NCBI GenBank assembly: GCA_964250725.1
Contig: CAXUHE010000002.1
Location: 7,532 to 63,613 of the forward strand
Reading direction: 5' to 3'
From: an uncultured Enterovirga sp.
GTDB taxonomy: Bacteria; Pseudomonadota; Alphaproteobacteria; Rhizobiales; Beijerinckiaceae
DNA length: 56,082 nucleotides
Shown: positions 2,698 to 54,404 of the stretch, piece after piece
Layout of the letters: each line of letters opens with the position of its first letter
Position numbering within the stretch: the first letter of the stretch is position 1
The notes under the pieces: model-generated
What the model saw: only the letters and a program-made list of their open reading frames with translations
The model's database searches: none
What the model was told of the DNA's origin: nothing
Made by a program: the position numbers and the translations under genes

Positions 2698-3117
2698 TCA
2701 CGACCACGGATCGATGAGCGGGATGCCGCAACCGGAGAAGTGCCGGGTGTTGCGGGTGGCGAGCGTCATGCCGTGGACGGACGCGGTCGCGGCGATGAAC
2801 GCGTCCATCGCGTCGAGAGCCCGCCCGCCTCGCTGCGTCTCGGCCATCAGAGTCCCCCAGCGGAGCGAGATCGGCAGATCGACCACGAGGCACCGCCCCG
2901 CGAACCGCTCGAGCAGCTGGTCCTCGAACCAGGACTGAAGCGAGGCCTGCCGCTTTCCGCCAGGCAGGAGACGGATGCCCCGGGCGATCTCCGCAGCGCT
3001 GACCGTGCTGATGAACACGCGCTCCTCGTCGAGGCCGTTGAGCCAATCGAGAACCGCGCGATCTGGCTTCGGGGCCGCCCATTCCGACAGGACGTTCGTG
3101 TCGAGCAGCAGGCTCAC
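2698..3117 (-). CDS. vapC: PIN-domain toxin (VapC family), 139 aa
   Basis: GTG start at 3117 overlaps the antitoxin TGA (GTGA). LLDTNVLSE, SAAEIARG, DAFIAATA and LATRNTRHF are PIN motifs. Confidence 0.9.
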   Translation of the reverse strand: MSLLLDTNVLSEWAAPKPDRAVLDWLNGLDEERVFISTVSAAEIARGIRLLPGGKRQASLQSWFEDQLLERFAGRCLVVDLPISLRWGTLMAETQRGGRALDAMDAFIAATASVHGMTLATRNTRHFSGCGIPLIDPWS

Positions 3118-3374
3118 AAATCGATCGTCCGGGGCGCCGCGAAGGGCCGGTCGAGATCGAGGCCCGATCCCCTCAGGGGCGAATTGGCGAGGAAATCGCC
3201 CAGCGGCACGCGGGGCTTCGTGCGCCGCTCCCACTCCTCGACCGACACGACGACCGCGGTCTCGCGGCCGTTGCGCGTGATCGTCTGCGGCCCCTGCGTC
3301 CGGGCCCGTTCCAGCATCTCGCTGAACCGCGCCTTCGCGGATGCCACGTTCCAGGCGGGCTGTATCGTGCTCAT
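3114..3374 (-). CDS. Phd/YefM-family antitoxin, 86 aa
   Basis: WNVASAKARFSEMLERA...GPQTITRNGRETAVVVSVEEW is the Phd/YefM signature. The gene lies directly upstream of the PIN toxin. Confidence 0.9.
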   Translation of the reverse strand: MSTIQPAWNVASAKARFSEMLERARTQGPQTITRNGRETAVVVSVEEWERRTKPRVPLGDFLANSPLRGSGLDLDRPFAAPRTIDL

Positions 3375-13783: not shown

Positions 13784-16700
13784 ATGACGTTCGAACATGG
13801 GTTCGGTGCAGGCAGGTTCGGACGGTCACGTTCGCGTCGTCGACCCTCCAGGACGTATGACGCCAAGCGTCCGCAAGTGTCCCTTCCGGGACGTCCTGAA
13901 TGGTTGAGCGAGGGAGGCTCCCTGCGGGGATCGCTCGTCGGCAGCGTGTCCCAGCGCGTCCTGTTCGAGACGCTGGAGCAGCGGCTGCTGCTCTCGGGAG
14001 ACCTCAATCCGATCAAGGGTTCGATCGACGTCCCGGGCGAGGTCGATCACTACGCGATCACGCTGACTGAACCGAAGCGGGTCTACTTCGATGCGCTGAA
14101 CGGCGGGGACGGCTCGACCACGAACGTCAACTGGTCTCTGTCGACCAGCACGGGCGAGACTGTCGTCAGCGACCGATCATTCGCGTCAGGCGACTACGTC
14201 TACTATAATGCGGCTCCCCCTACGGCTGAGCTCGCCTCGGGAGACTACACCCTCACGGTGCACGGCGTCGGCAACACCACGGGTGCCTATCAGTTCAGGC
14301 TTCTCGATCTCGCCGCCGCCCAGTCGGTGACGACCGGCTCCGACATCGTCGACAGTCTGGATCCGGGCAGCCGCGCCAACTCCTACAAGTTCGACGCGGC
14401 GGCCGGCGAGCACGTCTTCTTCGATCTGAAGACCGGGGACCGCTACGACGCCAGCGTGCGCCTGCTCGATCCGGATGGCGGCCTCGTCTTCGGCAGCAAC
14501 CTGTCCGACCACGACGTGCAGAACCTGTCGAAGAGCGGGACCTACACCCTGCTCGTCGAAGGCAACGTCAACTCGACGGATGTCGCCCCCTACACGTTCC
14601 GTGTGTCGAAGGTCGTCGACCCGGCTCCGGTCGCACTCGGGATCGGGGGCGCGGGCGCGCCGGAGAGCGTGGCTCAGAGTGGGGCGATCGGCGCACCCGG
14701 TGAGACCGAGCGCTACACCTTCACGACCACCGCCGCCAACCGTTACCTGTTCGACCCCCATGGGAGCGACGGCCGTATCCGATGGTCGATCCTCGACGCC
14801 AAGGGCCACGTTCTGGAGGATCGGCGGCAGTTCACCGACGACGACAACTCACTCTACGATCTCGCGCCTGGCACCTACACGATCGCCATCACGGCCGATG
14901 GAGACGTGACCGGGCCTTACGCGTTCCGTCTCTCGCAGGTGACGGCGGCGCCGGCGACCGCGCTGACCCTCGGCGGACAGCAGACCGGCACGCTCGACGC
15001 CGCCGACGAGTCCCACATCTACCGGCTGACTGCACAGGCCGGGGACGTATTGACCTTCAAGCGCGACGACCTCTCGAACGGCACCGCCACCTGGCGTCTC
15101 CTCGATCCGGACGGACGCGACGTCTTTCGCACCTATCTCTACGACCAGACCGTCACCATCAAGCAATCGGGCGACTACACGCTCCTGGTCGGTGGCTACC
15201 GATATGGCGCCGATCCGGCGACCTTCGCGTTCACGCTCACCGCCGGGACGCCCGTGGTTCCGCCGACCTACACGGGGAGCCTCGCCGCCTTCGACACGCC
15301 CTTCTCGGGAACGCTGGCCGCGCGCGGCGATACGGCGGACTACGTCTTCACGCTGGATCACGCCGCGCGCGTCTATGTCGACCCGATCCCGTCGGCTTAT
15401 ACGGGGCTCGGCTACCGGCTCGACGGACCTGACGGCACGGTCATCGACACCACCTCGATCTACTACGACGTCGGTCGCGCGGCCGATCTCGCACCGGGAA
15501 CGTACCGGCTTCGGGTTCAAGGATACTACGACGAGACCGGCGATTACCGGTTCGCTCTGCACGACGCGGCCTCGGCCCCAACTCTCCTGGTCGGGCAGGC
15601 CACGACCGGACAGCTCAATCCCGCGAACTCGACCGCCACGTTCACTTTCTCCGGCAAAGCCGGCGATCGGCTCAAGTTCGACGTTTCTCAAGACAACTAC
15701 TATGCCGGCTACCTGACGCTCCTCGACCCATGCGGGGGCAGCGTATTCAGCGTCAATTACAGTGATCGGACCGCGACGCTGCCGCTCGACGGGGTCTACA
15801 CACTGTATCTCGGCGGCTTCGCGACCAGCACCGGCGGCAGCTTCGATTACAGCTTCACGGCGAGCAAGGTCGTCGACACGTCGAGAACCGTCACCATCGG
15901 GCAGCGGATCGACGCTCCGGCCTCGCAGACGAGCCAAGTCGATCGCTATAGCCTCGATCTGTCCCATCAGACCGACGTCTATTTTGACACGTTGTCCGAG
16001 CAGGTCGGCTACTCGCACGTCCGGCAGATCTTCGATGCCGATGGTCGGCCCGTCACGGGGGAGGATTATCTCGGCAGCGACGTCGGGCAGACGCCCGTGT
16101 CTCTCGCGGCCGGTCATTATACGGTCGCGGTCACGAACCGGTCGGCGAGCGCGAGTGCCTACTCCTTCCGGCTTATCGACGCCCGCGCGGCCGAGACCTT
16201 CGCGCTCGATGTGCCCACGACGGTCCACCTCGATCCTGCGAACAGCACGAAGATCTACGCGTTCGCCGCCAAGGCTGGCGATCGCTTCTTCTTCGACGCC
16301 CAGTCACAAACACCCGACAACTCGGCCAACTGGAGGTTGATCGACCCGAGGGGTAACACGGTCTTCTACGAGAACGTCTCGACGGACGTCGACGACCGGA
16401 CCCTGACGGTGACCGGGCTGTACAGACTCCTCGTCGAGGGCTTCGGCTCCGGGACTGGCACAGCCGACTTCGCCTTGCAGGTGTCGCGCTCGGTGGACAC
16501 CGCCAAGCCTCTGACGCTCGACGCGCGCACGGACGGGGCCATCGCCAAGCCCGGCGCGCGGGACGTGTACAGCTTCACGCTCACCGACCCGACGAGCGTG
16601 ATGTTCGATAGTCTCGTCGGCAACGACTACAATCTCGTGTGGTCCCTCGTCGGGCCGAACGGGGCCGAGATCTCGGGCCGTTCCTTCTCGCAACAGGACT

Positions 16701-19700
16701 ACGAGGCCTATCCCGGGGGTGATTCAGGGAGCAGGCCGGTCTTGATGCTAGGTTCCGGGACCTACACCCTCACGATCGACGGGCGGGGCGACCACACGAC
16801 GCCCTACAGCTTCCGCTTGCTAAACATCGCCGGGGCCAAGCCGATCACGATCGGCTCCGTCGTGACCGATCAGGAGACTGACGAGGGGGCTTCGCGCGCG
16901 CGCATGGAGGTCGCAGGCGCTCCGGTGCCGGGCTATCCCGTCGCGTCCGACAACCGGGCCCTGCGCTTCGGCCAGACTTACGTGGACGTGCCGGATTCCG
17001 CGTCCCTGAAGCCGGCGACTGCGCTCAGCGTGGAGGCCTGGGTCTACCGCGACCCGTCGAACGGGGATTTCGGCACCGTCCTGATGAAGAGCTCGAATTC
17101 GTCCTGGCAAGACGGGTACGGGCTGGCCGAGCTGCGCGACAACAAGGTCGGCTTCTTCGTCAACAGCTGGGACGGCCACAACGTCACCGCCGACATCCCC
17201 GACAACCAGTGGGTCCACCTGGCCGGCACGTATGACGGCTCCACGCTGAAGATCTACGTCGACGGCGTCCTCAAGAACTCCGCCGATTACGTCGCCGCGG
17301 TCAACAACTCGAATGCCGACTTCCGCATCGGCTCCGGGGCGGGTGGCGGCTACCTGTGGCAGGGCGCGATCGACGATGTCCGCGTGTGGAACCGGGCTCT
17401 ATCGGCGCAGGAAGTTGCGGCCGACCGCAACCGTGGCCTGAGCGGTGCCGAGGCCGGGCTGGTGGCGCTGTATCACCTCGACGGCACGGGTGCGGCGGTG
17501 GCCGATGCGTCTCCCAGTCACAACGATGGCACCATCCTCCCCTACGCGCCCGCGATCGAGACCAAGCTCTACAGCTTCGTGGGCACGGCCGGGCAGAGTC
17601 TCTTCGTCGACATGCAGAGGAGCGATTTCGGTGGTCAGAAGCGGCTGATCGATCCGGACGGGCTGCTCATCTCACAGACTTACGTGTCCGACGATGTCGG
17701 CCCATTCAGGCTGCCCAAGACCGGCACCTACACCCTTGCGATCGACGGCTACAACAGCAACGGGCCGGGCGCGGGACTGACCTTCCGCCTCGTGTCGCCG
17801 ACCACCATCACGACGGCCATCACGCTCGACGCACCGGCTCAGGTCGGGCCCTTCTCCGTTCCCGGCCAGGTCGGCACGGCCATCGACCTGACGGGCAGCG
17901 AATATGCGGCGGTGCCCGCGGGCCCGGCCACCAATCTGACTGGCGACGTCACGCTCGACGTGTGGATCAAGCCCGGGAACTCGCAGGCCGAGTGGTCCCC
18001 GGTCGTGATCAAGAGCAACAATTCGGATGGCGGGCAGCGCTCCTACGCGCTGTGGTTCAACTCGGGTGGATTCGTCCAGTGGTCGACCGCCGACGCATCC
18101 GGCGAGGAATATCTGCGCTCGCCTGGCGGCTCGGTGCCGTTCGGACAATGGACTCACATCGCAGGCACCATCGACCGCACGACGGACAAGCTGCGCCTCT
18201 ATATCAACGGGGTCGAGACGGGATCGATCGACCTGCGCGACGCGCCCCCCGTCGACACATCGGCGAGCCCTCTCGAGATCGGGCGCACGCTCGGCGGGCC
18301 GGACGGATACTGGCGGCCCTTCGAGGGCTCGATCGACGACCTGCGCCTGTACTCGGTGGTGCGCAGCCCGGCCCAGATCCAGGACGACATGGCGGGCAGG
18401 AGCCCGATCGGCCAGCCGGGTCTGGCGCTCTACCTGCCGATGAACGACGCCACCTCGGCGACAACTCTCGGCGATCTGGGTCCACATCATGCCGACGCCA
18501 CGCTCACGAGCCGCGACAGGACGCTCACGGGCACGGTGACCGGGCGCCTCGACCAGCCGGGCGATACGCGCGAGTACACCTTCACGCTCGCGCAGAGCGG
18601 GCGCTACGTGTTCGACAGCCTGACCAACCGGGGCGACCTCCATTGGACGCTGACGCGGGCCGACGGTGACGTCGCGGCCAACCGACGGAGTTTCGACTCG
18701 CAGGACTGGTCCGACTATTCCGGCGACGGCGGCACGACGCCGATCCTCGATCTCGGCCCGGGCAGCTACACGCTGACGATCGGCGGGGACAGGGACGCGA
18801 CCGGTTACTTCGCGTTCCGGCTGTACGACCTGGCGTCGGCCGCGACCGTGCAACTCGGCGACCACGTCACGGGCCAGCTCCCGGCAGGCAACGGCAGCCT
18901 TGCCTACACGTTCACTGCGACCGCCGGGACGGTGGTCACGTTCGACGCGGGCGACCATTCCGGCGGCGATATCGTCTGGAGGCTCATCGATCGCACGCAG
19001 GGCCGGCCATTCCAGCAAGGCTTCGGCGACGTCGCCAACGTCAATCTCTACGCGGGTGGCACCTACACGCTGATCATCGACGGCGTATCAGCCAATCCGC
19101 TGCCTGTTGATTTCGACTTCACGATCACACCGCAACCACCCGTCGCGCCGGCGGGCTTCACCGGCACCGCCCTGGCCTTCGGCGAGACGATCGAGGGCTC
19201 GATCGACGGCGCCAACCAGCAAGACGACTTCGTCTTCTCGTTGAGCGATTTCACCCGGCTGCGGTTCGATAGCCTCACCAACGACGGCAACATCACCTGG
19301 TCGCTGGACGGTCCGCTCGGCACCGTGGTCGACCATCGTCCCCTCTCATACAACGACTGGGACGGCGCCTACTCGCCCCTGCTCGGCGGTTATGTCAGCC
19401 GGGCCGATCTCGTGCCCGGCCAGTACCGGTTGCGCGTCTCGGCCGACTCGCCTCAGGGCGCCTACCGGTTTCGCCTGCTCGACGTCGCGGCGTCGCCCGT
19501 GCTGACCTTCGGCACGACGATGTCGGACACGCTGGATCCCGGCAACGAGACCAAGCTCTACCAGTTCACGGCCGATGCCGGCACACGCGTCTTCTTCGAC
19601 GTCTCCTCGGCGAACCCCTACGACGGCAACTACCGCCTGTACGATTCGCGCTTCAACGAGGTCTTCGCGAATTACCTGACCGATCGGGACGTCGTCACGC

Positions 19701-22700
19701 TGCACGATGGCGGCACCTACACGATCGCCTTCGAGGGCGCGACGTCGGCGAGCCGCGTCAACCCGTACTCGTTGACCGTCTACAAGGTGGCCGACACCAC
19801 GACCGCGATCACGGCGGGCGAGCAGGTGGACGGGCAGGTGACCTCGCCCGGCCAGCGCAACCTCTATACCTTCGACGTCACCCAGCCGGCGCGCTACGTC
19901 TTCGACGGCCTCAGCAATCAGGGAAGCCTCAGCTGGTCGGTGACCGGGCCGGATGGTTCGGTCATCGATCCACGCAACATCACGGACGATGTCGGTGCGC
20001 CGGTCATCGACCTGAAACCCGGTCGCTACACGGTGGCCATCGACGGCTCGGGCGATTTCACCGGAAGCTACAGCTTCCGCCTGCTCGACCTCGCGGCCGC
20101 GACGCCGATCACGCTCGGCACGGCGATCTCCGACCAGCTCAGTCCCGCCGACCAGACGAAGCTGTACCGTTTCGACGCGCAGGTCGGCGACCGCGTCGCC
20201 TTCGACGCCGGTGCGGGGCAGTACGGCTTCAGCTGGCGGCTCATCAATCCGCTTGGCCAGCAGCTCTTCAATACGGGCTTCAGCGACGTCGACGCGCGCA
20301 CGATCACGGTGGCGGGCACCTATACGCTGGTTCTCGAAGGGTACAGCAACCGGGCCGACACGGCCCCGTTCACCTTCAACGCCGTCCCGACCGCTTCCGT
20401 CGCGCCCGTGCGGATCTCGAGCCTCGAGGCGCGTCCGACGCCCGACCTCGTGGTGGCGAACCTGACGGTCGCGGGCAGCCCGCTCATCGAATCGGGGGCG
20501 CTCATCACGGTGTCGTGGGACGATCGCAACCAGGGTGTTCGCCCGACGAACGGGTCGTTCACCGACCGCGTTGTCGTCCGCAACGCTGCAGGCGAGATCG
20601 TCTCGACCGCCACGCTCCCCTACGACGAGGCGGCGAGCGACAACGGACCCATTCCGCCGACCGGCTCGCGCGGCCGCTCGGTGCAGATCCGGCTGCCGAC
20701 CGGCTCGCGCGGCGCGGGCGCGCTGACCGTCTCGGTCTCGACCGACGTCTTCAACACGATCGCCGAGGAGAGCCTGGACAGCCAGGCCGAATCCAACAAC
20801 GGCGCGTCACTGACCGTCACGTCGACGCTCGCCACATATCCGGACCTCGTGGTGGACGAACTCCAGGTATCCCCTCCGAACGGGTGGACGCCGGGCTCGA
20901 CCGTCACGATCTCGTGGAGCCTCGCCAATCGGGGCGACAAGGCCGTCGAGACGCCGTTCGACGAGCAGATCGCGGTGCGCAACACCTCGACCGGGCAGAT
21001 CGTCAAGCTCGCCACCATCGCGTACGACACGTCCGCGACCGGCCTCGGGCCTCTGGCGGCCAGCGCGACGCGGCCGCGGCAATACCAGCTCACCTGGCCC
21101 TCGGACCTGTCGAGCGCCGGCTCCTTCGTGTTCGCGGTCACGACCGACGCGACCTCCAAGATCGCCGAGGGCAACGCGCAGGGCGACGCGGAGGCGAACA
21201 ACGGCGCGCAGGTCTCGATCGACTCGGCCCCGGACCTCGCCATCGAGAACCTGGCCGTGACTGGACCGCTCGAGTCGGGGCGCACGCTCACGATCGCTTG
21301 GCGAGACCGAAACGCCGGCCTCGCGTCGACGCCGGGCGGCTGGTCGGATTCGGTCACGGTCTACAACCGCACGACCGGCGAGACGGTGCTCTCGACCACC
21401 CTTCCCTACAATGCGGGCGACGCGGGGAACGGGGCCATCGCGGCAGGCGGATATCGCGACCGATCGCTCGCGTTCCGGGTCCCGGACGGCCTTCGCGGCA
21501 CGGGCGACCTCGTCGTCACCGTATCTGTCGACAGCTCGTCCAGCTTCGCCGAGATCACCGCCCACGGTTCGGCTTACGGCGCTCGCGACAACAACAGCGC
21601 CTCGACCACCGTGACGACGACGCTGCGCAACGCGGCCGACCTCGCGACCACGCTGACCTCCGTTCCCCCGACGGGCCGCGGCGGCGATCCGCTCACGGTG
21701 ACCTGGAGCGTACGCAACGTCGGCACGGCAGGAACCGACGTCGCCGGCTGGACCGACCGCGTGATCCTCTCGCGGGACGCCATCATCGGCAACGCGGACG
21801 ATATCGTGCTGGCGAGCGTCACGCATGCGGGCGCTCTCGCAGCCCGGGCCGGCTACACCGGCACGGCCGGTTTCACCCTGCCACTCAAGCTCGACGGTCC
21901 CTACTCGCTGTCCGTCGTGTCGGACGTCGGAGACCTCGTCAACGAACCGGATACGCGCGCCAACAATGCCGCGACGCCGGCCGCGATCCAGCTGACCAGC
22001 CCCGCGGCCGACCTCGCGGTCGAGGCGGTGGTCGCGCCCGAGAGCGCGCGCACCGACGACGTGATCTCGGTCGCGTGGCGTGTGCGCAATCGGGGCGACG
22101 CCACGACGGACGTGGCATCGTGGTCCGACCTCGTGGTCCTCTCCTCCGACACCACGATCGATGACAGCGACGTGGTCGTGGCCCGTATCGACCATGTCGG
22201 CGCGATCGCTGGACAGGACAGCTATACGGGCGGCGCTGAGTTCCGGGTGCCGAGTGAGCTTCTCGGGACGTACCACGTGCTGGTGCGCAGCGACGTCGAC
22301 GCGCGCGTCTACCAACGCGGCCAGACCGCCAACGACGTCGGGGTCTCGATCTCTCCTCTGACCATCGCACTCGCCCCGGCGGCCGATCTCACGGCGAGCG
22401 CCGTCTCGTCGATCGGCGACGGCGTTGCGGGCGAGTCCCGCACGGTCTCGTGGACGGTCGGCAATGTCGGCGATGCCACGGCGCGAGGCCCGTGGACCGA
22501 TCGCGTGTACCTGACCACGAACGGGACGCTGACGGGTGCAGTCCTGGTCGCCGCGGTCGACCGCGCGGGCGATCTCTCGGCGGGCGGCCGGTATACGGTG
22601 AGCGCCACCTTCGCGCTGCCCGACATCGCGGACGGTACCTACAAGGTGATCGTCGTCGCCGATGCCTACGCGGCGGTGGCCGAGCGAGGCCGCACGGCCA

Positions 22701-46900: not shown

Positions 46901-47005
46901 CGCCGGTAAGCAGATCTGCGTCATAACGATGATAAGGTGTTCCGATCGACATCACGTCGTCCGACGATCGATGCATCGGATCGAAGACGAGGCTCGGAGA
47001 GAACG

Positions 47006-47287
47006 ATGACTACACCAGCAGCGACGGTGAATCAGCCTGAAGTGAAGCTCGATGCGTCCAACTTGAAGAGCTCTTATTGCAATGTCTGCAATGCGACGAG
47101 TACTCGCGAGGAGGTCGTACTGAATTTCGGAGTCAATCAAAATTGGGATCTAGCGCAGGGTGCAGGAGGGATGGACGTCAGTCTCCAACACCGCATCATT
47201 CTCAGCCCGTTCGCCGCCAAACGACTGCTGGACATATTGTCGAAGCTGATGGGCGAGTATGAATCCCGCTTCGGGGAACTGCGTTGA
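47006..47287 (+). CDS. DUF3467-like small protein, 93 aa
   Basis: ATG at 47006 after GGAGAG. SSYCNVCNATSTREEVVLNFG...RIILSPFAAKRL...EYESRFG matches the DUF3467 pattern as I recall it (YxN...E..L.F...RI..SP..AKRL...YE..FG). Confidence 0.8.
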   Translation: MTTPAATVNQPEVKLDASNLKSSYCNVCNATSTREEVVLNFGVNQNWDLAQGAGGMDVSLQHRIILSPFAAKRLLDILSKLMGEYESRFGELR

Positions 47288-47385
47288 CGGCAAGCTGTCG
47301 GCCAGGAGGGCTCGCGATCCACTGACATGATCTGCAAGGCGGACAGGTCCCGTGCGCCCGCGCTCGGAAACTCACGGTAGTGACG

Positions 47386-49260
47386 ATGCACACGAGCCCG
47401 GACGTCGTTCCGGACGGCGACGCATCGATGGCCGCGAATGCCGAAGCGGTAGCGTGGTCGGCATTCACCGATCCCACCAGTTCCGCGGAGTTCCGGGCGG
47501 CGTGGTTGGCGCTCCAATGCGGGTTCGTGCCGGGCGTCCGCACCGGGCTGCTGCTCGTCGCACAGGAGGGTGTCTTTCGCCCCGCCGCGATCTGGCCGAA
47601 CGCCCTCACAGACGTCACGCATCTCGGCGAGATCGCCGAGCGCGCCCTGCGGGAACGTCGTGGGGCCGTCCACGTGGCCGCCCCGACACCGAACGATCCG
47701 ACGGGTCGCGTCATGGTCGCCTACCCGCTCCAGAACGACGACGTGACGCACGGGGTCGTGGTGCTGGACGTTGCTAATCTGCCCGGCTCCGACATCCGGG
47801 ACGTTTCGCGCGCCTTGCACTGGGGGGCGAGCGCCCTCAACACATCGTTCCGACGTGACTCGGCCGAAGATTCGGAAGGCCGTCTGGGTCGCGCGATGGC
47901 GGTTCTCGATCTGCTCGCGGTGGCCGAGGACCAGCCCTCGCTTCAGGGCAGTTCGTTCGCCCTGGTGAACGAGGTCGCCAAGCATCTCGCCTGCCGACGC
48001 GTCGCGTTGGGGCTACGCCGGGGAAGCCGCGTACGGCTGCGAGCGGTCTCGCATGCCGCGTGGTTCGACCGTCGGTCCGACCTCGCGCGGGCGCTGGAAG
48101 CCGCGATGCAAGAGGCGCTGGACCAGAACGCCTCGGTGGCGTGGCCCCCGGTCGGCGATGCGGCGCGTCGTGTTGCGGCTGCACATCGAGCGCTGATCGA
48201 GGCGTCGGTCGCGGGAGCTGGAGCCAGCCTCTCGGGCGCCTCGGTCATCCTGCGCCACGCCGGACGTGCGATCGGGGTGCTGACGATGGAGCGTGACGCG
48301 CCGTTCGCCGAGGCCGAACTCGCCCTCGCGGACCTGATCGGACGAACCACGGGGCCGCTGATCGCATTGACGGCCCGTGCCGAACGGCCGCTGGCCGGGT
48401 CGATGGCGGACGCGACCGGCCGTGGCTTGCGGGCGGTTTTCGGTCCGCGGCAGCCGGCGCTGAAGCTCGGTCTCGTGATGGGCGCAGCACTCGTGTCCAC
48501 GCTCCTCCTCGTCGAAGGACCGTTCCGGATCAGCGCGAAATCGGTGCTGGAGGGAGCGGTCCAGCGTGCCGCGGTCGCGCCATTTCAGGGCTATATCGCG
48601 CAAGCCCCCGTGAGGGCCGGCGACACCGTATCGGCCGGCCAGATCCTGGCTCTCCTCGATGATGCGGATCTCCGCCTGGAGCGCGTCAAGGCGGAGAGCG
48701 AACTCGCCAAGCTCGATCAGCGCCGACGCGAGGCCCAAGCCAAGCACGATCGTGCCACGCTCGGCATCGTGGCCGCTCAGATCGCGCAAGCCGAGGCCGA
48801 GCACAACCTCGCCTCCGAGAAGCTCGCCCGCACCCGCATCCTCGCGCCGATCGACGGGCTGGTGGTCTCCGGAGACCTCAGCCAGATGCTCGGATCGCCG
48901 ATCGAGCAGGGCAAGGTGCTGTTCGAGATCGCGCCGCTCCACAATTACCGGCTCGTCCTTCAGATCGACGAGGGCGACATCCGTTACGTCGAACTCGGGC
49001 AGAACGGTGCTTTGACGCTGACCGGCAATGCGGAGACCCGCATCCCGTTCACGATCGGGAAGATCACCGCCGTCTCGAGCCCTGGCGAAGGCCGCAATAC
49101 GTTTCGGGTCGAAGCCTCCCTCGACGAGACGCGCCTTCCGCTCCGGCCCGGCATGGAGGGAGTCGCGAAGGTCATCATAGGCGAGCGCCCGCTGCTCTGG
49201 GTGTGGACGCGCTCGCTCGTGGCGCGGCTGCGACTGTTCGCCTGGATGTGGATGCCGTGA
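47386..49260 (+). CDS. GAF-like domain(s) plus HlyD/RND membrane-fusion (periplasmic adaptor) protein (start 47380 or 47386)
   Basis: GAF-like N-terminal half (AYPLQ...GVVVL; AMQEALDQ...GRAIGVLTMER), one TM (LGLVMGAALVSTLLLV), lipoyl-like halves APFQGYI...VRAGDTVSAGQ and ILAPIDGLVV, coiled hairpin and LRPGMEG. Confidence 0.85.
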   Translation: MHTSPDVVPDGDASMAANAEAVAWSAFTDPTSSAEFRAAWLALQCGFVPGVRTGLLLVAQEGVFRPAAIWPNALTDVTHLGEIAERALRERRGAVHVAAPTPNDPTGRVMVAYPLQNDDVTHGVVVLDVANLPGSDIRDVSRALHWGASALNTSFRRDSAEDSEGRLGRAMAVLDLLAVAEDQPSLQGSSFALVNEVAKHLACRRVALGLRRGSRVRLRAVSHAAWFDRRSDLARALEAAMQEALDQNASVAWPPVGDAARRVAAAHRALIEASVAGAGASLSGASVILRHAGRAIGVLTMERDAPFAEAELALADLIGRTTGPLIALTARAERPLAGSMADATGRGLRAVFGPRQPALKLGLVMGAALVSTLLLVEGPFRISAKSVLEGAVQRAAVAPFQGYIAQAPVRAGDTVSAGQILALLDDADLRLERVKAESELAKLDQRRREAQAKHDRATLGIVAAQIAQAEAEHNLASEKLARTRILAPIDGLVVSGDLSQMLGSPIEQGKVLFEIAPLHNYRLVLQIDEGDIRYVELGQNGALTLTGNAETRIPFTIGKITAVSSPGEGRNTFRVEASLDETRLPLRPGMEGVAKVIIGERPLLWVWTRSLVARLRLFAWMWMP

Positions 49261-49270
49261 GCTCTGCCCC

Positions 49271-51415
49271 ATGAGCGAGCCGTTCCTGAGTTCCACCTGG
49301 TACCGCGCCGCGGGTCTGAGGCCTCGTCTCCGCCCGCATGTCGAGGTCGTGAGCCACGCCTATGGCGGGCGAAGCTGGTACATCCTGCACGACCGGGCGG
49401 GCGCGCGCACCCACCGGGTCACGCCGGCGAGCTATCTGCTGCTCGGGCGCATGGACGGTGCCACCACGCTGGACGCGATCTGGACGGACGTCGCGGTCCA
49501 GCTCGAGGACGACGCGCCGACCCAGGACGACGTACTGCGCCTCATGGCGCAACTCCACGCCAACGACCTCCTCCAGCTCGACACGCCGCCGCAAGTGTCC
49601 GAACTGCTGGAGCGATACGTCAAGCGACAGCGTCTGCCCTACCTCGCCTTTGTCAAGAACCCGATGTCGGGCAAGATCCCGCTGGTCGATCCCGATCGGA
49701 TGTTGGCAGCCTTGGTGCGGGCCGGCCGGCCGCTGCATGGCTGGCCGCTCACCCTCGCCTGGTTGGCCTGTGTTCTGCCCGCGGCCGCGCTCGTGCCGCT
49801 GCATTGGGCCGAACTCACCGCCAACGTCGCCGATCGGGTGCTCCTGACCCAGAACCTCGTCGCGCTGGCGCTCGTCTATCCGTTCATCAAGTTGATGCAC
49901 GAGATCGGACACGGCTACGCGGTCAAATCATTCGGGGGAGAGGCTCACGAGGCAGGCCTCATGCTGCTCGTCTTCTACCCGACGCCCTATATCGATGCGT
50001 CCGCATCGTTGGCGCTACCGAACAGGTTTGCGCGCGCGCTCGTGGGCGTCGCCGGGGTCGCGGTCGAGATGGTGCTCGCCGCCCTCTCATTCTATCTCTG
50101 GTCGCTCGCCGAGACCGGGTGGGTCCGCGCCATCGCTTTCGACGTCATGCTGATCGCCGGCGTGTCGACACTCGTCGTCAACGGCAACCCACTTCTCAGG
50201 TTCGATGCCTACTACATTCTGACTGATCTCCTCGAGATACCCAATCTCGGAGCCCGGTCGGGCAAATACTGGACGGCGCTCGTCGATCGCTACGCGTTCG
50301 GCGCGCGCGATCGCACGACGGACGCGACCAGCCGCGAGGCCGGGTGGTTCCTGGTCTACGCACCCGCGGCCTTCGCATACCGATTGCTCATCACCTTCAC
50401 GATCGCGCTGTTCGTCGCCAGCGAGTTCCTGGCAGCCGGTGTGGCCCTCGCCGCCTGGTCACTGTTCTTCGGTATCGTCATGCCGGTCGTGCGTGGGTTC
50501 CGGCACGTCGTCACGGGGGCTGAACTGCATCGCAATCGCCGGCGCGCATTGACGGTGACGATGGCCGGGCTTGCCGGTCTGGGTCTCGCGATCTTCGCTC
50601 TGCCTCTCCCGATGCACACGAATGCCGAGGGCGTGATCTGGCTCCCCGACGAGGCGCAGGTGCGTGCCGAAACCACCGGTTTCATCTCACGTCTGCTGGC
50701 CGAGCCGGGCAGCCCAGTCGTGAAGGGTCAGGCGCTGGTCGAGAGCGTCGAACCCCTCCTCGCGGCCGGGATCACGTCGGAGCGCGCCAAGGTCGAGGAG
50801 TTGCAACTTCGCTACGTCGCCGAAAGCGTGACCGATCGGGTCAAGGCCACGATTACCGGCAACGAGCTTGGCGAGACCAGGGCGAAACTGGACCGGCTTG
50901 TCGAGCGCGGCGGCAAGCTGCTCGTGAGGAGCGCATCGGAGGGCACTCTGACAGTGCCGGGCGCCGCCGATCTGCCGGGCCGCTTCTTTCGCGAAGGGCA
51001 GGTCATCGCCTATATCACGCCCCAAGCTGGGCGCACGGTCAGGGTGGTCGTGACGCAAGACGACATCGATCTCGTGCGGCACCACCTCCTCGGCATCGAG
51101 GCGAAGCTGGCGGGCCGACTGGACGAGACCTTTGCGGGCAACATCGCACGCGAGGTGCCGGCCGCACGCAACGAGGTGCCCAGCCGAGCCCTCGCGAGTT
51201 CCGGCGGCGGGGTTCTGGCGACCGACCCCGGCGATCGCGATGGTCTGCAGGCGCTCCAGAGGCTGTTCCAGTTCGACGTGGCCCTCACGCCCGACCCGGC
51301 GGAGAGCCGGTACGGCGGCCGCGTCTACCTGCGTTTCGTGCACGATCACGAGCCGCTCGGTTTTCAGCTGTATCGCCGTCTCCGGCAGCTCTTCCTGTCG
51401 CGCTTCGGCGCGTGA
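49271..51415 (+). CDS. PqqD/RRE-like N-terminus, M50 (site-2-protease-like) membrane domain and HlyD-like adaptor, fused in one protein
   Basis: N-terminal YILHD...YLLLGRMDGATTLDAIW...VLRLMAQLHANDLL; HEIGH (49898-49912) and NGNPLLRFDA (50180-50209) among several TMs; C-terminal VRAETTGFI...GSPVVKGQAL, coiled coil and VRSASEG. Confidence 0.85.
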   Translation: MSEPFLSSTWYRAAGLRPRLRPHVEVVSHAYGGRSWYILHDRAGARTHRVTPASYLLLGRMDGATTLDAIWTDVAVQLEDDAPTQDDVLRLMAQLHANDLLQLDTPPQVSELLERYVKRQRLPYLAFVKNPMSGKIPLVDPDRMLAALVRAGRPLHGWPLTLAWLACVLPAAALVPLHWAELTANVADRVLLTQNLVALALVYPFIKLMHEIGHGYAVKSFGGEAHEAGLMLLVFYPTPYIDASASLALPNRFARALVGVAGVAVEMVLAALSFYLWSLAETGWVRAIAFDVMLIAGVSTLVVNGNPLLRFDAYYILTDLLEIPNLGARSGKYWTALVDRYAFGARDRTTDATSREAGWFLVYAPAAFAYRLLITFTIALFVASEFLAAGVALAAWSLFFGIVMPVVRGFRHVVTGAELHRNRRRALTVTMAGLAGLGLAIFALPLPMHTNAEGVIWLPDEAQVRAETTGFISRLLAEPGSPVVKGQALVESVEPLLAAGITSERAKVEELQLRYVAESVTDRVKATITGNELGETRAKLDRLVERGGKLLVRSASEGTLTVPGAADLPGRFFREGQVIAYITPQAGRTVRVVVTQDDIDLVRHHLLGIEAKLAGRLDETFAGNIAREVPAARNEVPSRALASSGGGVLATDPGDRDGLQALQRLFQFDVALTPDPAESRYGGRVYLRFVHDHEPLGFQLYRRLRQLFLSRFGA

Positions 51416-51461
51416 GGCCATCGAGGTGGTGCCCACCCGATCGGACATCCTGCGGCCGTGG

Positions 51462-53432
51462 ATGAGCGACGCTTTGCTGGTGTCGCCCTATCCCGAGCGC
51501 CAGCCTCCGGTGGCCGGTCCGCTGGACGAGTTCGTGTCCGATCTCGGGCGTATCGTGGCGTCGCCGTTCAGGGCCGGGCTCGCGTCGCCGCGACCCATCG
51601 TGCGGGCTGCCGAGTTGGCGCGCCACCGATTGCGCGACCTCTCGGACGAGGCGCTCACGGCGAGCGTCACCGCCGTTCGCGCGCGCCTCATCCGTGACGG
51701 GCTCACGCGATCTCTCGTCGGCGAGACCTTCGCGCATGTGCGGGAGGCGACGCGGCGTCATCTCGGCTTCGAGCATCATCCCGTGCAGCTCATGGGCGGC
51801 TACGTGATGCTGCGGGGGCGTATGGCGGAGATGCGGACCGGAGAGGGGAAGACCGTGACAGCGCTTCTCTGCGCCGCTACCGCGGCTTTGGCCGGCATGC
51901 CGGTTCACGTGGTCACGGTGAACGAATATCTGGCAGCCCGCGACGCGGACGAACTCGGACCAATCTACCGCGCTCTCGGTCTTTCGGTCGGGCTCGCGCA
52001 GCATGGACAGGACCCGCCGGTACGCCGTGCCGCCTACGCGGCCGACGTCACGTACTGCACCAACAAGGAGCTCGTCTTCGATTATCTCCGCGACCGGATC
52101 GCTGCTCGCGTCCGGCCGTCACGATCTCGCCAGCTCGTCGGCGACGTCCTCGGGACGACCCGGACCACGGAGCCTCTGCTGCTGCGCGGGTTGCATTGCG
52201 CTTTCGTGGACGAAGCCGATAGCATTCTGGTGGACGAGGCGAGGACCCCCCTCATCATCTCGGCCCCGACCGACCCGGGACACGGCGACGCGCGCGTGAT
52301 CGAGGCGCTCTCGATCGCCGGCCGCCTCGTGCCCGGGCATGACTTCGTCATCCAGCCGGCCGACAAGCTCGTGTTCCTCACCTCGATCGGCCGCAAGGCC
52401 GCCGAGGCCCTCTCGGCTCGAGCAGAGGGTCTCTGGCGGTCGCGTCGGGCGCGCGAGGAGTTGCTGACGCAGGCGCTGTCGGCCCTGCACGTTTTTCGGC
52501 GCGATCACCAGTACATCGTCAACGAGGGCGCGGTTCAGATCGTGGACGAGTACACGGGCCGCGTGATGGCGGACCGCAAATGGCAGCGCGGCCTCCAGCA
52601 GCTCATCGAAGCCAAGGAGGGCTGTGCGCCGAGCGAAGGTCGCGAGACGATCGCGCAGGTGACCTACCAGCGCTTCTTCCGCCGATACCTATGGCTCGGC
52701 GGGATGACAGGGACGGCGCGCGAAGTCTCGGCCGAACTCGGTCGCATCTACGGTCTGGAGGTGGTTCCCATCCCGACCCACGAGCCGAACCGGAGGCGAG
52801 AGGGACGAACCCGTTTCTACCGGTCATCGCAGGCGCGATGGGACGCCGTCGTCGCCTCGACCCGTGAGAAGGTCGAGTCCGGCCGCCCCGTGCTGATCGG
52901 CACCCGCTCGGTCGCGGCATCCGAGCACATCGCAGATCGGCTCCGGTCGGAGGGACTCGCGGCGGTCGTGCTGAATGCCCGGCAGGATCGGGACGAGGCC
53001 GAGACGGTCGCGGCAGCCGGCCTGCCCAGTCGGATCACGGTCGCGACCAACATGGCCGGCCGAGGAACCGACATCCGCCCGGCCGGCGACGTTCTCGCGC
53101 AGGGCGGCCTTCACGTGATCCTGACCGAGTTCCACGAATCGGCCCGGATCGATCGCCAGCTGTTCGGCCGGACGGGACGTCAGGGCAATCCTGGTACGGC
53201 GGAAGCTCTCGTGTCGCTGGACGACGAGTTGTTTCGACACTACTCGGCCCGTCCCGCCGCGTGGCTCATGCGCTTCTATCCGGGAGGCCGCATACCGCCT
53301 GCGCTCGGTTCGCTTCTGAGAGGGATTGCGCAATGGCGTGCGGAGCACATGCACGCCCGCATGCGTCGGGATACGTTTCGACGCAGCCAACAGCAGGAGA
53401 AGGCTTATGGTTTCATGAGTTGGAGCGAGTGA
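51462..53432 (+). CDS. Accessory SecA-like (SecA_DEAD) ATPase lacking the C-terminal wing/scaffold region, about 656 aa (alternative GTG starts 51426/51429)
   Basis: AEMRTGEGKT, VHVVTVNEYLAARD, FDYLRD, VDEADSILVDEARTPLIIS, IVDEYTGR...GLQQLIEAKEG, GMTGTA, ATNMAGRGTDI and HESARIDRQLFGRTGRQG. The protein ends about 70 aa after VSLDDEL. Confidence 0.9.
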   Translation: MSDALLVSPYPERQPPVAGPLDEFVSDLGRIVASPFRAGLASPRPIVRAAELARHRLRDLSDEALTASVTAVRARLIRDGLTRSLVGETFAHVREATRRHLGFEHHPVQLMGGYVMLRGRMAEMRTGEGKTVTALLCAATAALAGMPVHVVTVNEYLAARDADELGPIYRALGLSVGLAQHGQDPPVRRAAYAADVTYCTNKELVFDYLRDRIAARVRPSRSRQLVGDVLGTTRTTEPLLLRGLHCAFVDEADSILVDEARTPLIISAPTDPGHGDARVIEALSIAGRLVPGHDFVIQPADKLVFLTSIGRKAAEALSARAEGLWRSRRAREELLTQALSALHVFRRDHQYIVNEGAVQIVDEYTGRVMADRKWQRGLQQLIEAKEGCAPSEGRETIAQVTYQRFFRRYLWLGGMTGTAREVSAELGRIYGLEVVPIPTHEPNRRREGRTRFYRSSQARWDAVVASTREKVESGRPVLIGTRSVAASEHIADRLRSEGLAAVVLNARQDRDEAETVAAAGLPSRITVATNMAGRGTDIRPAGDVLAQGGLHVILTEFHESARIDRQLFGRTGRQGNPGTAEALVSLDDELFRHYSARPAAWLMRFYPGGRIPPALGSLLRGIAQWRAEHMHARMRRDTFRRSQQQEKAYGFMSWSE

Positions 53433-53474
53433 GGCGAGGCCACGTCGATACGCCGGACGCGCCGAGCGGAGCAT

Positions 53475-54404
53475 TCACTCGTTCGATGAGACTTCGGCGG
53501 CCGGCACGCCGGGGCGAAGCGGCGCGAACAGGATCTTGCACCGCAGGCCCGCGGGAAGAACGTTGCCGGGATTGGGCAGGACAAGCCTCACCCCGAAGGT
53601 GCCACTCGCCGCATCGAGCACGTGATCGACGACCTTGACCGTCGCGGTGTAAGTTCCGCCTACCGGATCCTCCGGCATGACCTGCGCGGTCAATCCGGGC
53701 ACCGTCTGACCGAAATAACCGATCGGAACGAACACCTCGACATTCAGGGGATCGATCTTGGCGACGGTCAAAATCTGTGACTGCTCGCTCCGATATTCTC
53801 CGGCCGACATGGTGCGTTCGACCACCACTCCATCGATCGGGCTCGCGATGCGACGCTGGAGTAGCTGCGACTCGGCCCGTTTGAGCTCCTGACGAGCGAG
53901 TTCCTGATTGTAATGGGCATCGACGGCATTCATCTCGGCCACGCGCGCGTCCGTCTCGCTCTCATCGAGCGACGCCGCGGCCACGATATTGCCGGCCCGC
54001 AACTTCTCCTGGCGGGCGACCTTGCGGCGCAGGAACTCTGTTCTGCTCTGGTTGGATCGTATCAGTGCGTCGTTGTCGGCGCGTATCCGGGCCAGCGCGA
54101 CGTTCGCGACCTCCACGTCCGACTCGAGCTCGGCGACCACCTGACCGACCTTGACGGGGTCTCCCCGGTCCACATTGACACGGCTGATCACGCCGGCGAC
54201 CGGCGCACTCAGCTTGGTCGTAACCTGGGCCTCCATGAGGCAATCGAGCTTATCGCTCGATAATCTCGGTGCCGCCACAGCTTGTCCGACAGGATACGAA
54301 ACCATAACGGCAATCGTCAGATAGAAGATGTAGTGATACACTCGGATCGCTTCAAGTCGATACACATCATGTCTCCACGAGGAATTCTCAAGACCATGGA
54401 CCAT
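53475..54404 (-). CDS. Efflux RND/HlyD-type periplasmic adaptor (MFP) with N-terminal signal/anchor (start uncertain)
   Basis: Hydrophobic YIFYLTIAVMVSYPVGQAVAA, LSAPVAGVI...VDRGDPVKVGQ, coiled coil, IASPIDGVV, LDAASGTFGVR and LPAGL. Confidence 0.87.
   Translation of the reverse strand: MVHGLENSSWRHDVYRLEAIRVYHYIFYLTIAVMVSYPVGQAVAAPRLSSDKLDCLMEAQVTTKLSAPVAGVISRVNVDRGDPVKVGQVVAELESDVEVANVALARIRADNDALIRSNQSRTEFLRRKVARQEKLRAGNIVAAASLDESETDARVAEMNAVDAHYNQELARQELKRAESQLLQRRIASPIDGVVVERTMSAGEYRSEQSQILTVAKIDPLNVEVFVPIGYFGQTVPGLTAQVMPEDPVGGTYTATVKVVDHVLDAASGTFGVRLVLPNPGNVLPAGLRCKILFAPLRPGVPAAEVSSNE

What the first reader, a model, noticed from the sequence alone, without database searches (positions are those of the whole stretch)
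13784..54404. Candidate non-canonical giant-protein secretion system: SecA-like ATPase, M50-MFP fusion, GAF-MFP, MFP and DUF3467 next to an 11,038-aa LEPR-XLL substrate
Seen: the giant gene is followed co-directionally by DUF3467-like, GAF-MFP, PqqD-like/M50/MFP and short SecA-like genes, then a convergent third MFP. There are three type I-like adaptors but no ABC ATPase/permease, RND pump or TolC in the window. The substrate has no Sec h-region and I saw no RTX GGxGxD repeats. Established: type I secretion uses ABC + MFP + TolC, and SecA is a polypeptide-pushing ATPase. I recall comparative-genomic reports of secondary SecA_DEAD genes beside T1SS-like genes and LEPRxLL proteins in Planctomycetes, Chlorobi and some Proteobacteria; this should be verified, and I know of no mechanistic characterisation. 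Inference: a SecA-powered type I-like exporter in which the M50 multi-pass domain replaces the ABC membrane component and mixed MFPs bridge to an outer-membrane channel encoded elsewhere.
Basis: partly seen in the sequence, partly recalled or inferred. Interest (0 to 1): 0.92.

Follow-up and report, generated by a model that had tools for sequence, protein, structure and literature searches.

The report
Leader-reading exporter for giant proteins
An 11,038-residue protein with a short N-terminal tag lies beside a widespread gene set (a membrane protease with a tag-binding fold fused to a tunnel adaptor, two more adaptors and a shortened SecA) that likely reads and clips the tag and exports the giant without the usual ABC pump; the gene set is already in print, but its cargo and mechanism are untested.

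Summary
In detail: all six genes are at the stated places. The cassette is in print (Kamneva 2015, PMC4452313), with the same SecA-as-ATPase, M50-as-pore guess, but that paper names no cargo. This scan has noted the system before on other DNA (14 findings).

Tested here:
- In 400 sampled Pseudomonadota, all 38 LEPR-XLL-positive genomes carry the M50-adaptor gene; 0 of 316 genomes without it have the tag.
- The M50 protein has a PqqD/RRE leader-binding domain and an invariant HExxH…D site.
- A predicted complex places the tag on the RRE and reaches the active site (score 0.61, best control 0.00). The tag's spacing matches the daptide leader.

A sister clade with similar tags and TolC has no second SecA, so the protease-adaptor, not SecA, is the constant core. 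No cognate TolC is assembled here, and an ABC exporter acting from elsewhere is not excluded.

Best reading (0.6): a dedicated, ABC-less, type-I-like exporter that reads and cleaves an N-terminal leader, with SecA-like as a clade-specific helper.

The parts
13784..46900 (+). Giant adhesin-like protein, 11,038 aa; predicted cargo. LamG, CARDB, He_PIG/Big_9/cadherin-like, dockerin, cohesin and weak RHS and beta-propeller hits; one HExxH at aa 9981; low-complexity tail with a short hydrophobic patch near aa 10974
13961..14011 (+). LEPR-XLL tag (aa 60-76; NF012209 over cut-off; weak Planc_extracel hit); predicted RRE-bound leader, inferred cut after Arg67
47006..47287 (+). DUF3467 protein (93 aa from ATG 47006; ORF opens at GTG 46937); small three-strand-plus-helix fold; accessory (27 of 80 related loci); role not determined
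47380..49260 (+). GAF-like region, one TM helix (aa 360-378), periplasmic adaptor (MFP)
49271..51415 (+). Three-part fusion: RRE (PqqD fold, aa ~10-105), M50 intramembrane zinc protease (7 predicted TM helices; H210-E211-x-x-H214, D312), MFP (aa ~445-700); the constant core of the system
51426..53432 (+). Truncated SecA-like ATPase (NBD1, preprotein-binding domain, NBD2, start of the scaffold helix); ATPase motifs intact; start GTG 51426 or ATG 51462
53475..54404 (-). Third, stand-alone periplasmic adaptor (RND_mfp); convergent here, usually co-directional

Best explanation
This locus likely encodes a dedicated type-I-like export machine without its own ABC pump, in which the RRE domain of the M50 fusion is predicted to bind the giant protein's N-terminal LEPR-XLL tag, the M50 site would clip it, and the three adaptors would pass the chain to a TolC encoded elsewhere, with the shortened SecA a likely clade-specific ATP-driven helper. 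SHOWN: gene content and order; RRE fold; invariant catalytic residues; MFP fold; tight co-occurrence of tag and M50-MFP gene; intact ATPase motifs and a conserved truncation in the SecA-like protein; its absence from a sister clade. PREDICTED by a model: tag bound as a strand to RRE beta-3, Phe61 against helix 3, chain reaching the HExxH/D site. INFERRED: cleavage after Arg67 (by analogy with the daptide leader); N-terminus-first export of an unfolded chain; a membrane passage built from the TM helices of the M50-MFP and GAF-MFP proteins; use of a housekeeping TolC; SecA-like acting as a clamp or ratchet that holds and feeds the chain rather than as a two-helix-finger pusher; the exported giant acting as a surface adhesin.
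For: (1) Co-occurrence. Relatives: the 5 of 61 genomes with a full-length M50-MFP are exactly the 5 of 61 with the tag (both counts include the window's genome). Pseudomonadota sample (400 genomes, own genome excluded): 38 tag-positive, all among the 84 with an M50-MFP match at E<=1e-25; 0 of the other 316. 45 of 50 module genomes from several phyla carry the tag (50 of the 80 loci were submitted). (2) RRE: the N-domain profile hits PqqD 3g2b at E=1e-4; the model matches lasso-peptide RREs 6jx3_B (Z 9.6, rmsd 2.7, 84 aligned) and 5v1u_A (Z 9.5, rmsd 2.9, 83 aligned). The best NCBIfam hit is the daptide RRE-protease NF041824 (E=1.9e-38, aa 18-415, below cut-off). (3) H210, E211, H214, N304, N306, P307 and D312 are invariant in 66 of 66 aligned homologues; both motifs were found in 94 of 98 locus copies and the other 4 keep HExxH. 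(4) Predicted complex: score 0.61, best of 3 controls 0.00. That mark was reached by 116 of 157 solved complexes and 2 of 215 mismatched pairs; the counts hold only roughly with my own alignments. Runs agree in at least 75% of contacts; partner pLDDT 48. The interface is giant aa 56-72 against residues 45-54, 87-98, 207-214, 304 and 311-312; invariant Arg49 pairs with Glu62. (5) The tag consensus FExLEPR has the spacing of the daptide leader ELExMEAP, whose L(-7) and M(-4) were needed for modification, sit in RRE pockets of MpaB in a predicted model, and are removed with the leader by the RRE-fused site-2 protease MpaP (passages of 10.1101/2023.03.08.531785). (6) An ABC-signature ORF occurs in 5 of 80 loci and never inside the module; TolC-like genes lie in 12 of 80 loci and in most sister-clade loci inspected. 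(7) SecA-like: Walker A G/K/T, DExD and the GRxGRQG region are invariant or nearly so in 68 sequences; median C-terminus at position 656. In the 80 M50-positive genomes tested (80 of 84), 29 of 31 with a SecA-like gene and 9 of 49 without carry NF012209.
Against: No experiment shows export, cleavage or binding. RRE-leader complexes are solved (6jx3, 5v1u), so the pass may reflect likeness to them, and the partner's fold is uncertain. No energy source is evident for the SecA-less clade: 14 loci form a separate branch (SH-like 100) with the adaptors, often TolC, and LE[PTA]RxxFD[GA]A-type giants but only the canonical SecA. An RRE in that clade is only weakly seen with my profile (4 of 14 at E<0.01). 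That an M50 domain or the adaptors' helices can form a protein pore is unproven. No TolC over the TIGR01844 cut-off is assembled in this 85%-complete genome, and it holds a PrtD-type ABC over cut-off (C134) that could act from elsewhere. In a second phylum sample (150 genomes around G066), 3 of 5 tag-positive genomes have the M50 gene; G640 has a SecA-like fragment at a contig edge, but G618 has neither gene. Related genomes are not independent, so the Fisher values printed overstate the case.
Confidence: 0.6

Rival explanations
1. One reading: SecA-like is the obligatory motor and the M50 domain is simply the membrane pore that replaces the ABC transporter.
For: ATPase motifs are intact; SecA-like sits next to the M50 gene in 72 of 80 loci and goes with the LLS[AG]D tag type (29 of 31). 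Proposed in PMC4452313 section 17.
Against: No wing or two-helix finger. Absent from the 14-locus sister clade and, within this clade, from complete G359 and from G503, G098 and G504 (completeness not given); degenerate in G123. An invariant catalytic site and an RRE argue for more than a pore.
Confidence: 0.12
2. Two-step route: after leader binding or cleavage, the short SecA hands the giant to the housekeeping SecYEG (as mycobacterial SecA2 does; recalled), and the adaptors only shepherd it across the periplasm and outer membrane.
For: SecA-like keeps the preprotein-binding domain; Kamneva places its clade next to actinobacterial SecA2. Wing-less SecA domains inside other giant proteins are proposed to aid their export (passages of 10.1101/2023.11.21.568195).
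Against: No h-region in the giant. The SecY-entering two-helix finger is missing (its role recalled). Membrane-anchored MFPs and a co-encoded TolC fit a sealed one-step duct better (established for T1SS).
Confidence: 0.12
3. The cassette is a processing, retention or release device; the giant is actually exported by a canonical ABC type I system encoded elsewhere.
For: The genome has a PrtD-type ABC over cut-off and an RTX-like large protein on C39. In Chlorobium chlorochromatii, two LEPRxLL giants flank a TolC gene and are modelled as T1SS cargo (passages of 10.64898/2026.03.19.712371). The SecA-less clade needs energy from somewhere.
Against: No RTX repeats and no shared C-terminal signal among 40 upstream long ORFs. 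Three dedicated MFPs would be redundant, since T1SS ABCs come with their own (established). G023 has the module and a 14,309-codon giant ORF but no PrtD-type ABC over cut-off, though it has weaker ABC hits.
Confidence: 0.11
4. Signalling module: GAF sensing plus site-2 proteolysis regulate expression or shedding of the adhesin, with no transport role.
For: GAF-like domain and site-2 protease; Kamneva suggests a regulatory role for the GAF protein; a LuxR-family gene lies directly upstream of the giant.
Against: Three MFP folds and a frequently co-encoded TolC have no place in pure signalling. No sigma or anti-sigma gene was noticed among conserved neighbours (not searched systematically).
Confidence: 0.05

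Closest known systems
Secondary SecA_DEAD / T1SS-like conserved locus (Kamneva, Poudel & Ward 2015, PMC4452313)
   Same: Wing-less SecA_DEAD, M50+HlyD, GAF+HlyD and HlyD genes; no ABC; OEP only sometimes; same proposal for the ATPase and pore.
   Different: That paper names no cargo, leader, RRE, DUF3467 or proteolytic role and does not describe the SecA-less sister clade in the sections read; it states the biological role is unknown. This locus adds an adjacent 11,038-aa tagged giant.
Daptide leader peptidase MpaP (RRE-fused intramembrane site-2 protease; NCBIfam NF041824)
   Same: RRE followed by an HExxH intramembrane protease; similar spacing of leader residues (LExMEAP versus FExLEPR).
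   Different: Score 132.6 is below the 300 cut-off. Here it is fused to a periplasmic adaptor and the presumed substrate is a 1.1-MDa protein, not a short peptide.
Type I secretion systems (HlyBD-TolC, Lap, Sii) and peptidase-containing ABC transporters (family properties recalled)
   Same: MFP adaptors, presumed TolC, giant repetitive cargo; in PCATs, leader cleavage is coupled to export.
   Different: No ABC in the module, three different MFPs, no RTX repeats, an N-terminal tag, and a zinc M50 protease with RRE instead of a C39 peptidase.
Accessory SecA2 systems (SecA2/SecY2; mycobacterial SecA2) and wing-less SecA domains in Omnitrophota giants (10.1101/2023.11.21.568195)
   Same: A second SecA linked to very large surface proteins.
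   Different: No SecY2 seen in this module; the protein is about 110-190 aa shorter than the SecA2 and SecA structures listed; it is a separate gene tied to MFPs; all SecA2 models score far below cut-off.
Planctomycete extracellular motif PF07595 / LEPR-XLL NF012209
   Same: [quoted passage not shown]
   Different: No export machine was assigned to it in the passages read. This report proposes the RRE-M50-MFP as its reader; Planctomycete genomes were not tested.

Membership tests
Kamneva secondary SecA_DEAD locus | Second SecA_DEAD protein lacking most of the wing/scaffold, besides a canonical SecA | tested here: met
   a separate, more canonical SecA fragment at the end of contig C109
Kamneva secondary SecA_DEAD locus | Neighbouring M50+HlyD, GAF+HlyD and HlyD genes | tested here: met
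   the GAF and M50 Pfam hits are weak (E 0.002 and 0.006), as the paper also notes for M50
Kamneva secondary SecA_DEAD locus | Placement in that paper's SecA clade | not tested
   the paper's sequences were not fetched
Canonical type I secretion system | Cognate ABC transporter in the locus | tested here: not met
   none among module genes; none inside the module in 80 loci; one acting from elsewhere is not excluded
Canonical type I secretion system | Membrane fusion protein | tested here: met
   three MFP domains
Canonical type I secretion system | TolC-type outer-membrane channel | tested here: inconclusive
   one OEP gene beside an RND operon, below TIGR01844 cut-off, in an 85%-complete assembly; all 4 relatives checked have one over cut-off
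Canonical type I secretion system | RTX GGxGxD repeats in the cargo | tested here: not met
   0 matches
Peptidase-containing ABC transporter (PCAT) | C39 peptidase fused to an ABC domain | tested here: not met
   the protease is M50 with RRE and MFP, with no C39 or ABC hit
Accessory Sec / SecA2 | SecA2 family score and full-length motor with two-helix finger | tested here: not met
   TIGR03714, TIGR04221, TIGR04397 and NF012136 all far below cut-off; alignment ends at B. subtilis SecA 571
Accessory Sec / SecA2 | Dependence on SecY or SecY2 | not testable with these tools
   needs depletion experiments
RRE-fused site-2 leader peptidase (MpaP-like) | N-terminal RRE fold | tested here: met
RRE-fused site-2 leader peptidase (MpaP-like) | HExxH and distal Asp zinc ligands | tested here: met
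   invariant in 66 of 66
RRE-fused site-2 leader peptidase (MpaP-like) | NF041824 curated cut-off | tested here: not met
   132.6 of 300 bits: works like MpaP, is not a member
RRE-fused site-2 leader peptidase (MpaP-like) | Actual cleavage of the leader | not testable with these tools
   only a predicted complex
LEPR-XLL domain protein (NF012209) | Motif near the N-terminus above cut-off | tested here: met
   aa 60-76; 25-31 bits against a cut-off of 17

The most novel reading that the evidence does not exclude
A separate class of one-step secretion system in Gram-negative bacteria: it borrows RiPP logic (RRE-read, M50-cleaved leader), threads proteins of up to about 19,000 residues N-terminus first through a mixed ring of three adaptors into TolC, uses no ABC transporter, and takes either a truncated SecA or no dedicated ATPase at all. 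The LEPR-XLL, Planc_extracel and LEPRxxFD motifs would be its signal peptides.
Probability: 0.45. Interest if true: 0.9.

Novelty: new variant of a known kind. Interest (0 to 1): 0.68.

Why it matters
How bacteria export proteins of 5,000-20,000 residues that have neither a Sec signal nor RTX repeats is open, and the LEPR/Planctomycete motif has been called a putative export signal since 2004 (as cited in PMC8567305) without a machine named in the passages read. The evidence here links signal, reader, protease and adaptors. It gives sharp tests (tag-reporter fusion, predicted cut after Arg67, catalytic and Walker A mutants) in culturable hosts. About 21% (84 of 400) of sampled Pseudomonadota carry an M50-adaptor gene, so the route, if real, is common. 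A short transferable tag for exporting very large proteins would also be useful. The score is held down because the cassette and the SecA/M50 guess were published in 2015 and nothing is yet shown experimentally.

Tried and rejected
- One search was swamped by unrelated words and gave nothing.
- Searches for a paper joining the parts found none: LEPRxLL (1 paper); LEPR-XLL (2 papers, listing only); giant proteins+SecA+M50+HlyD (1 paper); DUF4347+HlyD+TolC (generic T1SS papers in the 15 listed of 249); RRE+site-2 protease+membrane fusion protein+leader (0 papers); DUF3467/Planc_extracel/PF07595/NF012209/DUF4347 (8 papers, 3 read as passages). The library lacks most subscription journals. bioRxiv supplements (e.g. 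the Chlorobium secretion-operon tables) and 3 image-only Kamneva supplements were not seen and could bear on novelty.
- DUF3467: model pLDDT 87.6, but no Foldseek match at E<=0.001 and best VIA Z 5.7 (COMM, PUR, PC4-like). This is too weak to assign a function; a SecB-like chaperone guess found no support.
- A universal C-terminal signal was rejected: the tails of 40 upstream long ORFs vary.
- My early note that G035 shows action in trans was corrected: its module is split by a rearrangement. Only its second tagged gene on C3 lies apart.
- ESM Atlas on giant aa 8701-9200 gave only hits under 0.9, leaning to alpha/beta-hydrolase clusters; lead only.
- The promoter/terminator scan was at chance level.
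- DUF4347 was not found in this genome, and the control did not ring either.
- The default tree run timed out. The FastTree result is used (99 rows; partial M50 copies such as L051 were dropped by a coverage filter).
- Planctomycete genomes could not be sampled.
Full report
1. Observation. The window holds one uninterrupted 11,038-codon ORF (13784-46900, +). It is followed on the same strand by DUF3467, a GAF-MFP, a PqqD/M50/MFP fusion and a SecA-like gene, with gaps of 105, 92, 10 and 46 bp, and then by a convergent MFP. Pfam and NCBIfam confirm each domain call. The giant carries NF012209 at aa 60-76 (here LEQR), no GGxGxD and no hydrophobic h-region. Its body is LamG, CARDB, He_PIG/Big/cadherin, dockerin and cohesin modules, with long stretches that match nothing. 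Its GC (67.4%) is close to the genome's (69.3%). The upstream genes (pckA-, chvIG-, hprK- and PTS-like; names from my reading) and the nearest M50 homologues point to an alphaproteobacterium, probably Hyphomicrobiales (inference). The assembly is 85% complete. A second, diverged copy of the cassette lies on contig C43 (12796-20141, -; 34-47% identity), again behind an adhesin-like gene cut by the contig end.

2. What is in print. Kamneva, Poudel and Ward 2015 (PMC4452313; abstract, part of the methods, sections 15-18, term searches of the main text and of 16 of 19 supplements) describe this cassette: a secondary SecA_DEAD protein that lost its wing/scaffold, M50+HlyD, GAF+HlyD and HlyD, sometimes with OEP and without an ABC. 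They suggest SecA as the ATPase and M50 as the pore. The paper has no occurrence of LEPR, giant, adhesin or DUF3467 and calls the role unknown. A 2026 preprint on Chlorobium chlorochromatii (abstract and passages) reports two LEPRxLL giants flanking a TolC gene and transferred to a partner cell; it does not mention M50. PMC8567305 (passages) says the related Planctomycete motif is thought to be a novel export signal. My searches for a paper linking tag, RRE-protease and adaptors found none, within a library that lacks most subscription journals. This scan's own notes hold 14 findings with the same words in other genomes. They are unchecked AI notes, were read after I had formed the RRE-peptidase reading (note), and are not counted as evidence.

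3. Conservation of the cassette. Many loci are cut by contig ends: 4 of the 8 without SecA-like and all 9 without GAF-MFP are truncated. TolC-like genes were in 12 of 80 with a profile built from ten locus TolCs. ABC-signature ORFs were in 5 of 80, none inside the module. The named hosts span Alpha-, Beta- and Gammaproteobacteria, Nitrospirota, Myxococcota, Thermodesulfobacteriota and Campylobacterota.

4. Link to the cargo. Among 61 relatives (own genome included), 5 have a full-length M50-MFP and the same 5 have the tag. Of 50 module genomes (50 of the 80 loci), 45 have the tag, mostly on ORFs of thousands of codons. In an even sample of 400 Pseudomonadota, 38 are tag-positive; all 38 are among the 84 with an M50-MFP match and none among the 316 without. 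By score, 30 of 34 genomes with a strong match (260 bits or more) and 8 of 50 with a weak one are tag-positive. In a second phylum (150 genomes around G066), 3 of 5 tag-positive genomes have the gene; one of the other two has a SecA-like fragment at a contig edge and one (G618) has neither. Kin are not independent, but the pattern recurs across families and within genera that mix presence and absence.

5. The M50 fusion as a leader reader. The AlphaFold model (pLDDT 87.9) shows an N-terminal three-strand/three-helix domain, a helical membrane region (7 hydrophobic segments) and a MexA/MacA-like adaptor. The N-domain is an RRE: profile hit to PqqD, structural matches to lasso-peptide RREs solved with their leaders (Z 9.5-9.6). 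The zinc ligands are invariant. The best family hit is the daptide peptidase model, below cut-off. In daptides an RRE-fused site-2 protease removes a leader ending ELExMEAP, and L(-7) and M(-4) are the key residues (passages). The tag consensus FExLEPRxLLSAD (30 sequences) has the same spacing, which puts Phe61 at -7, Leu64 at -4 and an inferred cut after Arg67. The complex prediction scored 0.61 against a best control of 0.00 (mark reached by 116 of 157 solved and 2 of 215 mismatched pairs, roughly applicable; runs agree in at least 75% of contacts; partner pLDDT 48). Only the conserved part of the 50-residue partner (giant aa 56-72) is in the interface: aa 59-64 run along RRE residues 47-54, Phe61 touches helix residues 90-95, invariant Arg49 pairs with Glu62, and the catalytic 210/211/214/312 are in contact. 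Solved RRE-leader complexes exist, so this shows likeness and plausibility, not binding; the model does not give the cut site.

6. The SecA-like protein. It aligns to B. subtilis SecA 27-571 and ends about 45 residues later. In 67 full-length relatives the end falls at 625-668, median 656, and the ATPase motifs are invariant or nearly so. It thus keeps both nucleotide-binding domains and the preprotein clamp but lacks the wing and the two-helix finger that canonical SecA pushes into SecY (boundaries and role recalled). It is probably an active ATPase, but not a canonical pusher. It is also not universal. Of 80 M50-positive genomes tested, 31 have it, in the main next to the M50 gene; 30 of these are among the 34 strong-match genomes. 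A FastTree of 99 M50 fusions (midpoint root) splits 14 SecA-less loci from the rest (SH-like 100). Those loci hold MFP, GAF-MFP and M50-MFP (HExxH in 14 of 14), often TolC, and DUF4347/cadherin giants starting LE[PTA]RxxFD[GA]A-like. A strict LEPRxxFD coding match was in 29 of 54 M50-positive genomes (50 weak-class plus 4) and 0 of 54 M50-negative controls; the loose pattern gave 33 versus 10 (strict counts by my reading). The controls were all from the window's order, so taxon is confounded. Within the main clade, SecA-like is missing from complete G359 and from three other genomes and is degenerate in G123; in G064 it lies on another contig beside a tagged gene. The constant core is therefore tag + M50-MFP + GAF-MFP + MFP.

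7. Outer membrane and alternatives. The assembly has one OEP gene, beside an RND operon and below the TolC cut-off, whereas all four relatives checked have a TolC over cut-off. It also has a PrtD-type ABC, so a housekeeping TolC is probably unassembled, and a canonical ABC acting from elsewhere cannot be excluded by sequence alone. Rivals and odds are given in their sections.

8. Verdict. The feature is real and non-random. The locus belongs by gene content to a cassette described in 2015 and, in the papers I could search, not tested since. It works like a type I system or PCAT but fails membership of both, and of SecA2. What these tests add is the cargo link, the RRE-protease reading with a predicted cut site, and the finding that SecA is an add-on. 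Novelty: new variant of a known kind. Interest 0.68; the boldest reading (a separate ABC-less, leader-guided secretion class) has probability 0.45 and would deserve 0.9.

Noticed in passing
window:12764-13549 (+): LuxR-family regulator (autoinducer-binding E=8e-19 plus GerE HTH), 234 bp upstream of the giant gene on the same strand; a possible controller of the operon. No homologue was tagged in ten fetched regions of relatives.
   Followed up: partly
G000:C43:12796-22738 (-): Second, diverged copy of the whole cassette (DUF3467, GAF-MFP, M50-MFP, SecA-like, MFP; 34-47% identity) behind an adhesin-like gene cut by the contig end; its M50 falls in a different branch from the window's.
   Followed up: partly
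L112-L126 (e.g. G231:C1:3145000-3165000): SecA-less sister system: MFP + GAF-MFP + M50-MFP, often with TolC, next to DUF4347/cadherin giants with an LE[PTA]RxxFD[GA]A tag; no dedicated ATPase seen; a sulfotransferase gene in L122.
   Followed up: partly
window giant, last ~70 aa (about 46690-46900): Short hydrophobic patch, basic run, then a W-x-x-[DN]-F...PN-x-x-I/L pattern also clear in 4 of 40 upstream giants (L003, L008, L021, L035) and in L133; possible retention or stop signal in a subset.
   Followed up: partly
window giant aa 8701-9200 and aa 9981: A possible alpha/beta-hydrolase-like region (Atlas leads under 0.9) and a lone HExxH (weak Peptidase_M13 hit): the giant may carry enzyme modules. 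It also holds both dockerin and cohesin domains.
   Followed up: partly
L128:10742-12691 (G123): Degenerate SecA-like gene (26% identity, SecA_DEAD E=0.005) in its usual place, with TolC and MFP downstream: a possible decaying intermediate.
   Followed up: partly
L127:3180-5554 (G119): SapC and TolC genes precede the cassette, echoing the sapC-giant-tolC arrangement reported for Chlorobium chlorochromatii.
   Followed up: no
window:1-11406: Ordinary alphaproteobacterial neighbourhood by my reading of the translations: GGDEF/EAL protein, FAD oxidase, PIN-domain gene (2698-3234, -), aldo-keto reductase, pckA, chvI/chvG-like pair, HPr kinase, PTS EIIA, HPr, glutathione S-transferase. An aldehyde dehydrogenase starts at 55194.
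   Followed up: no
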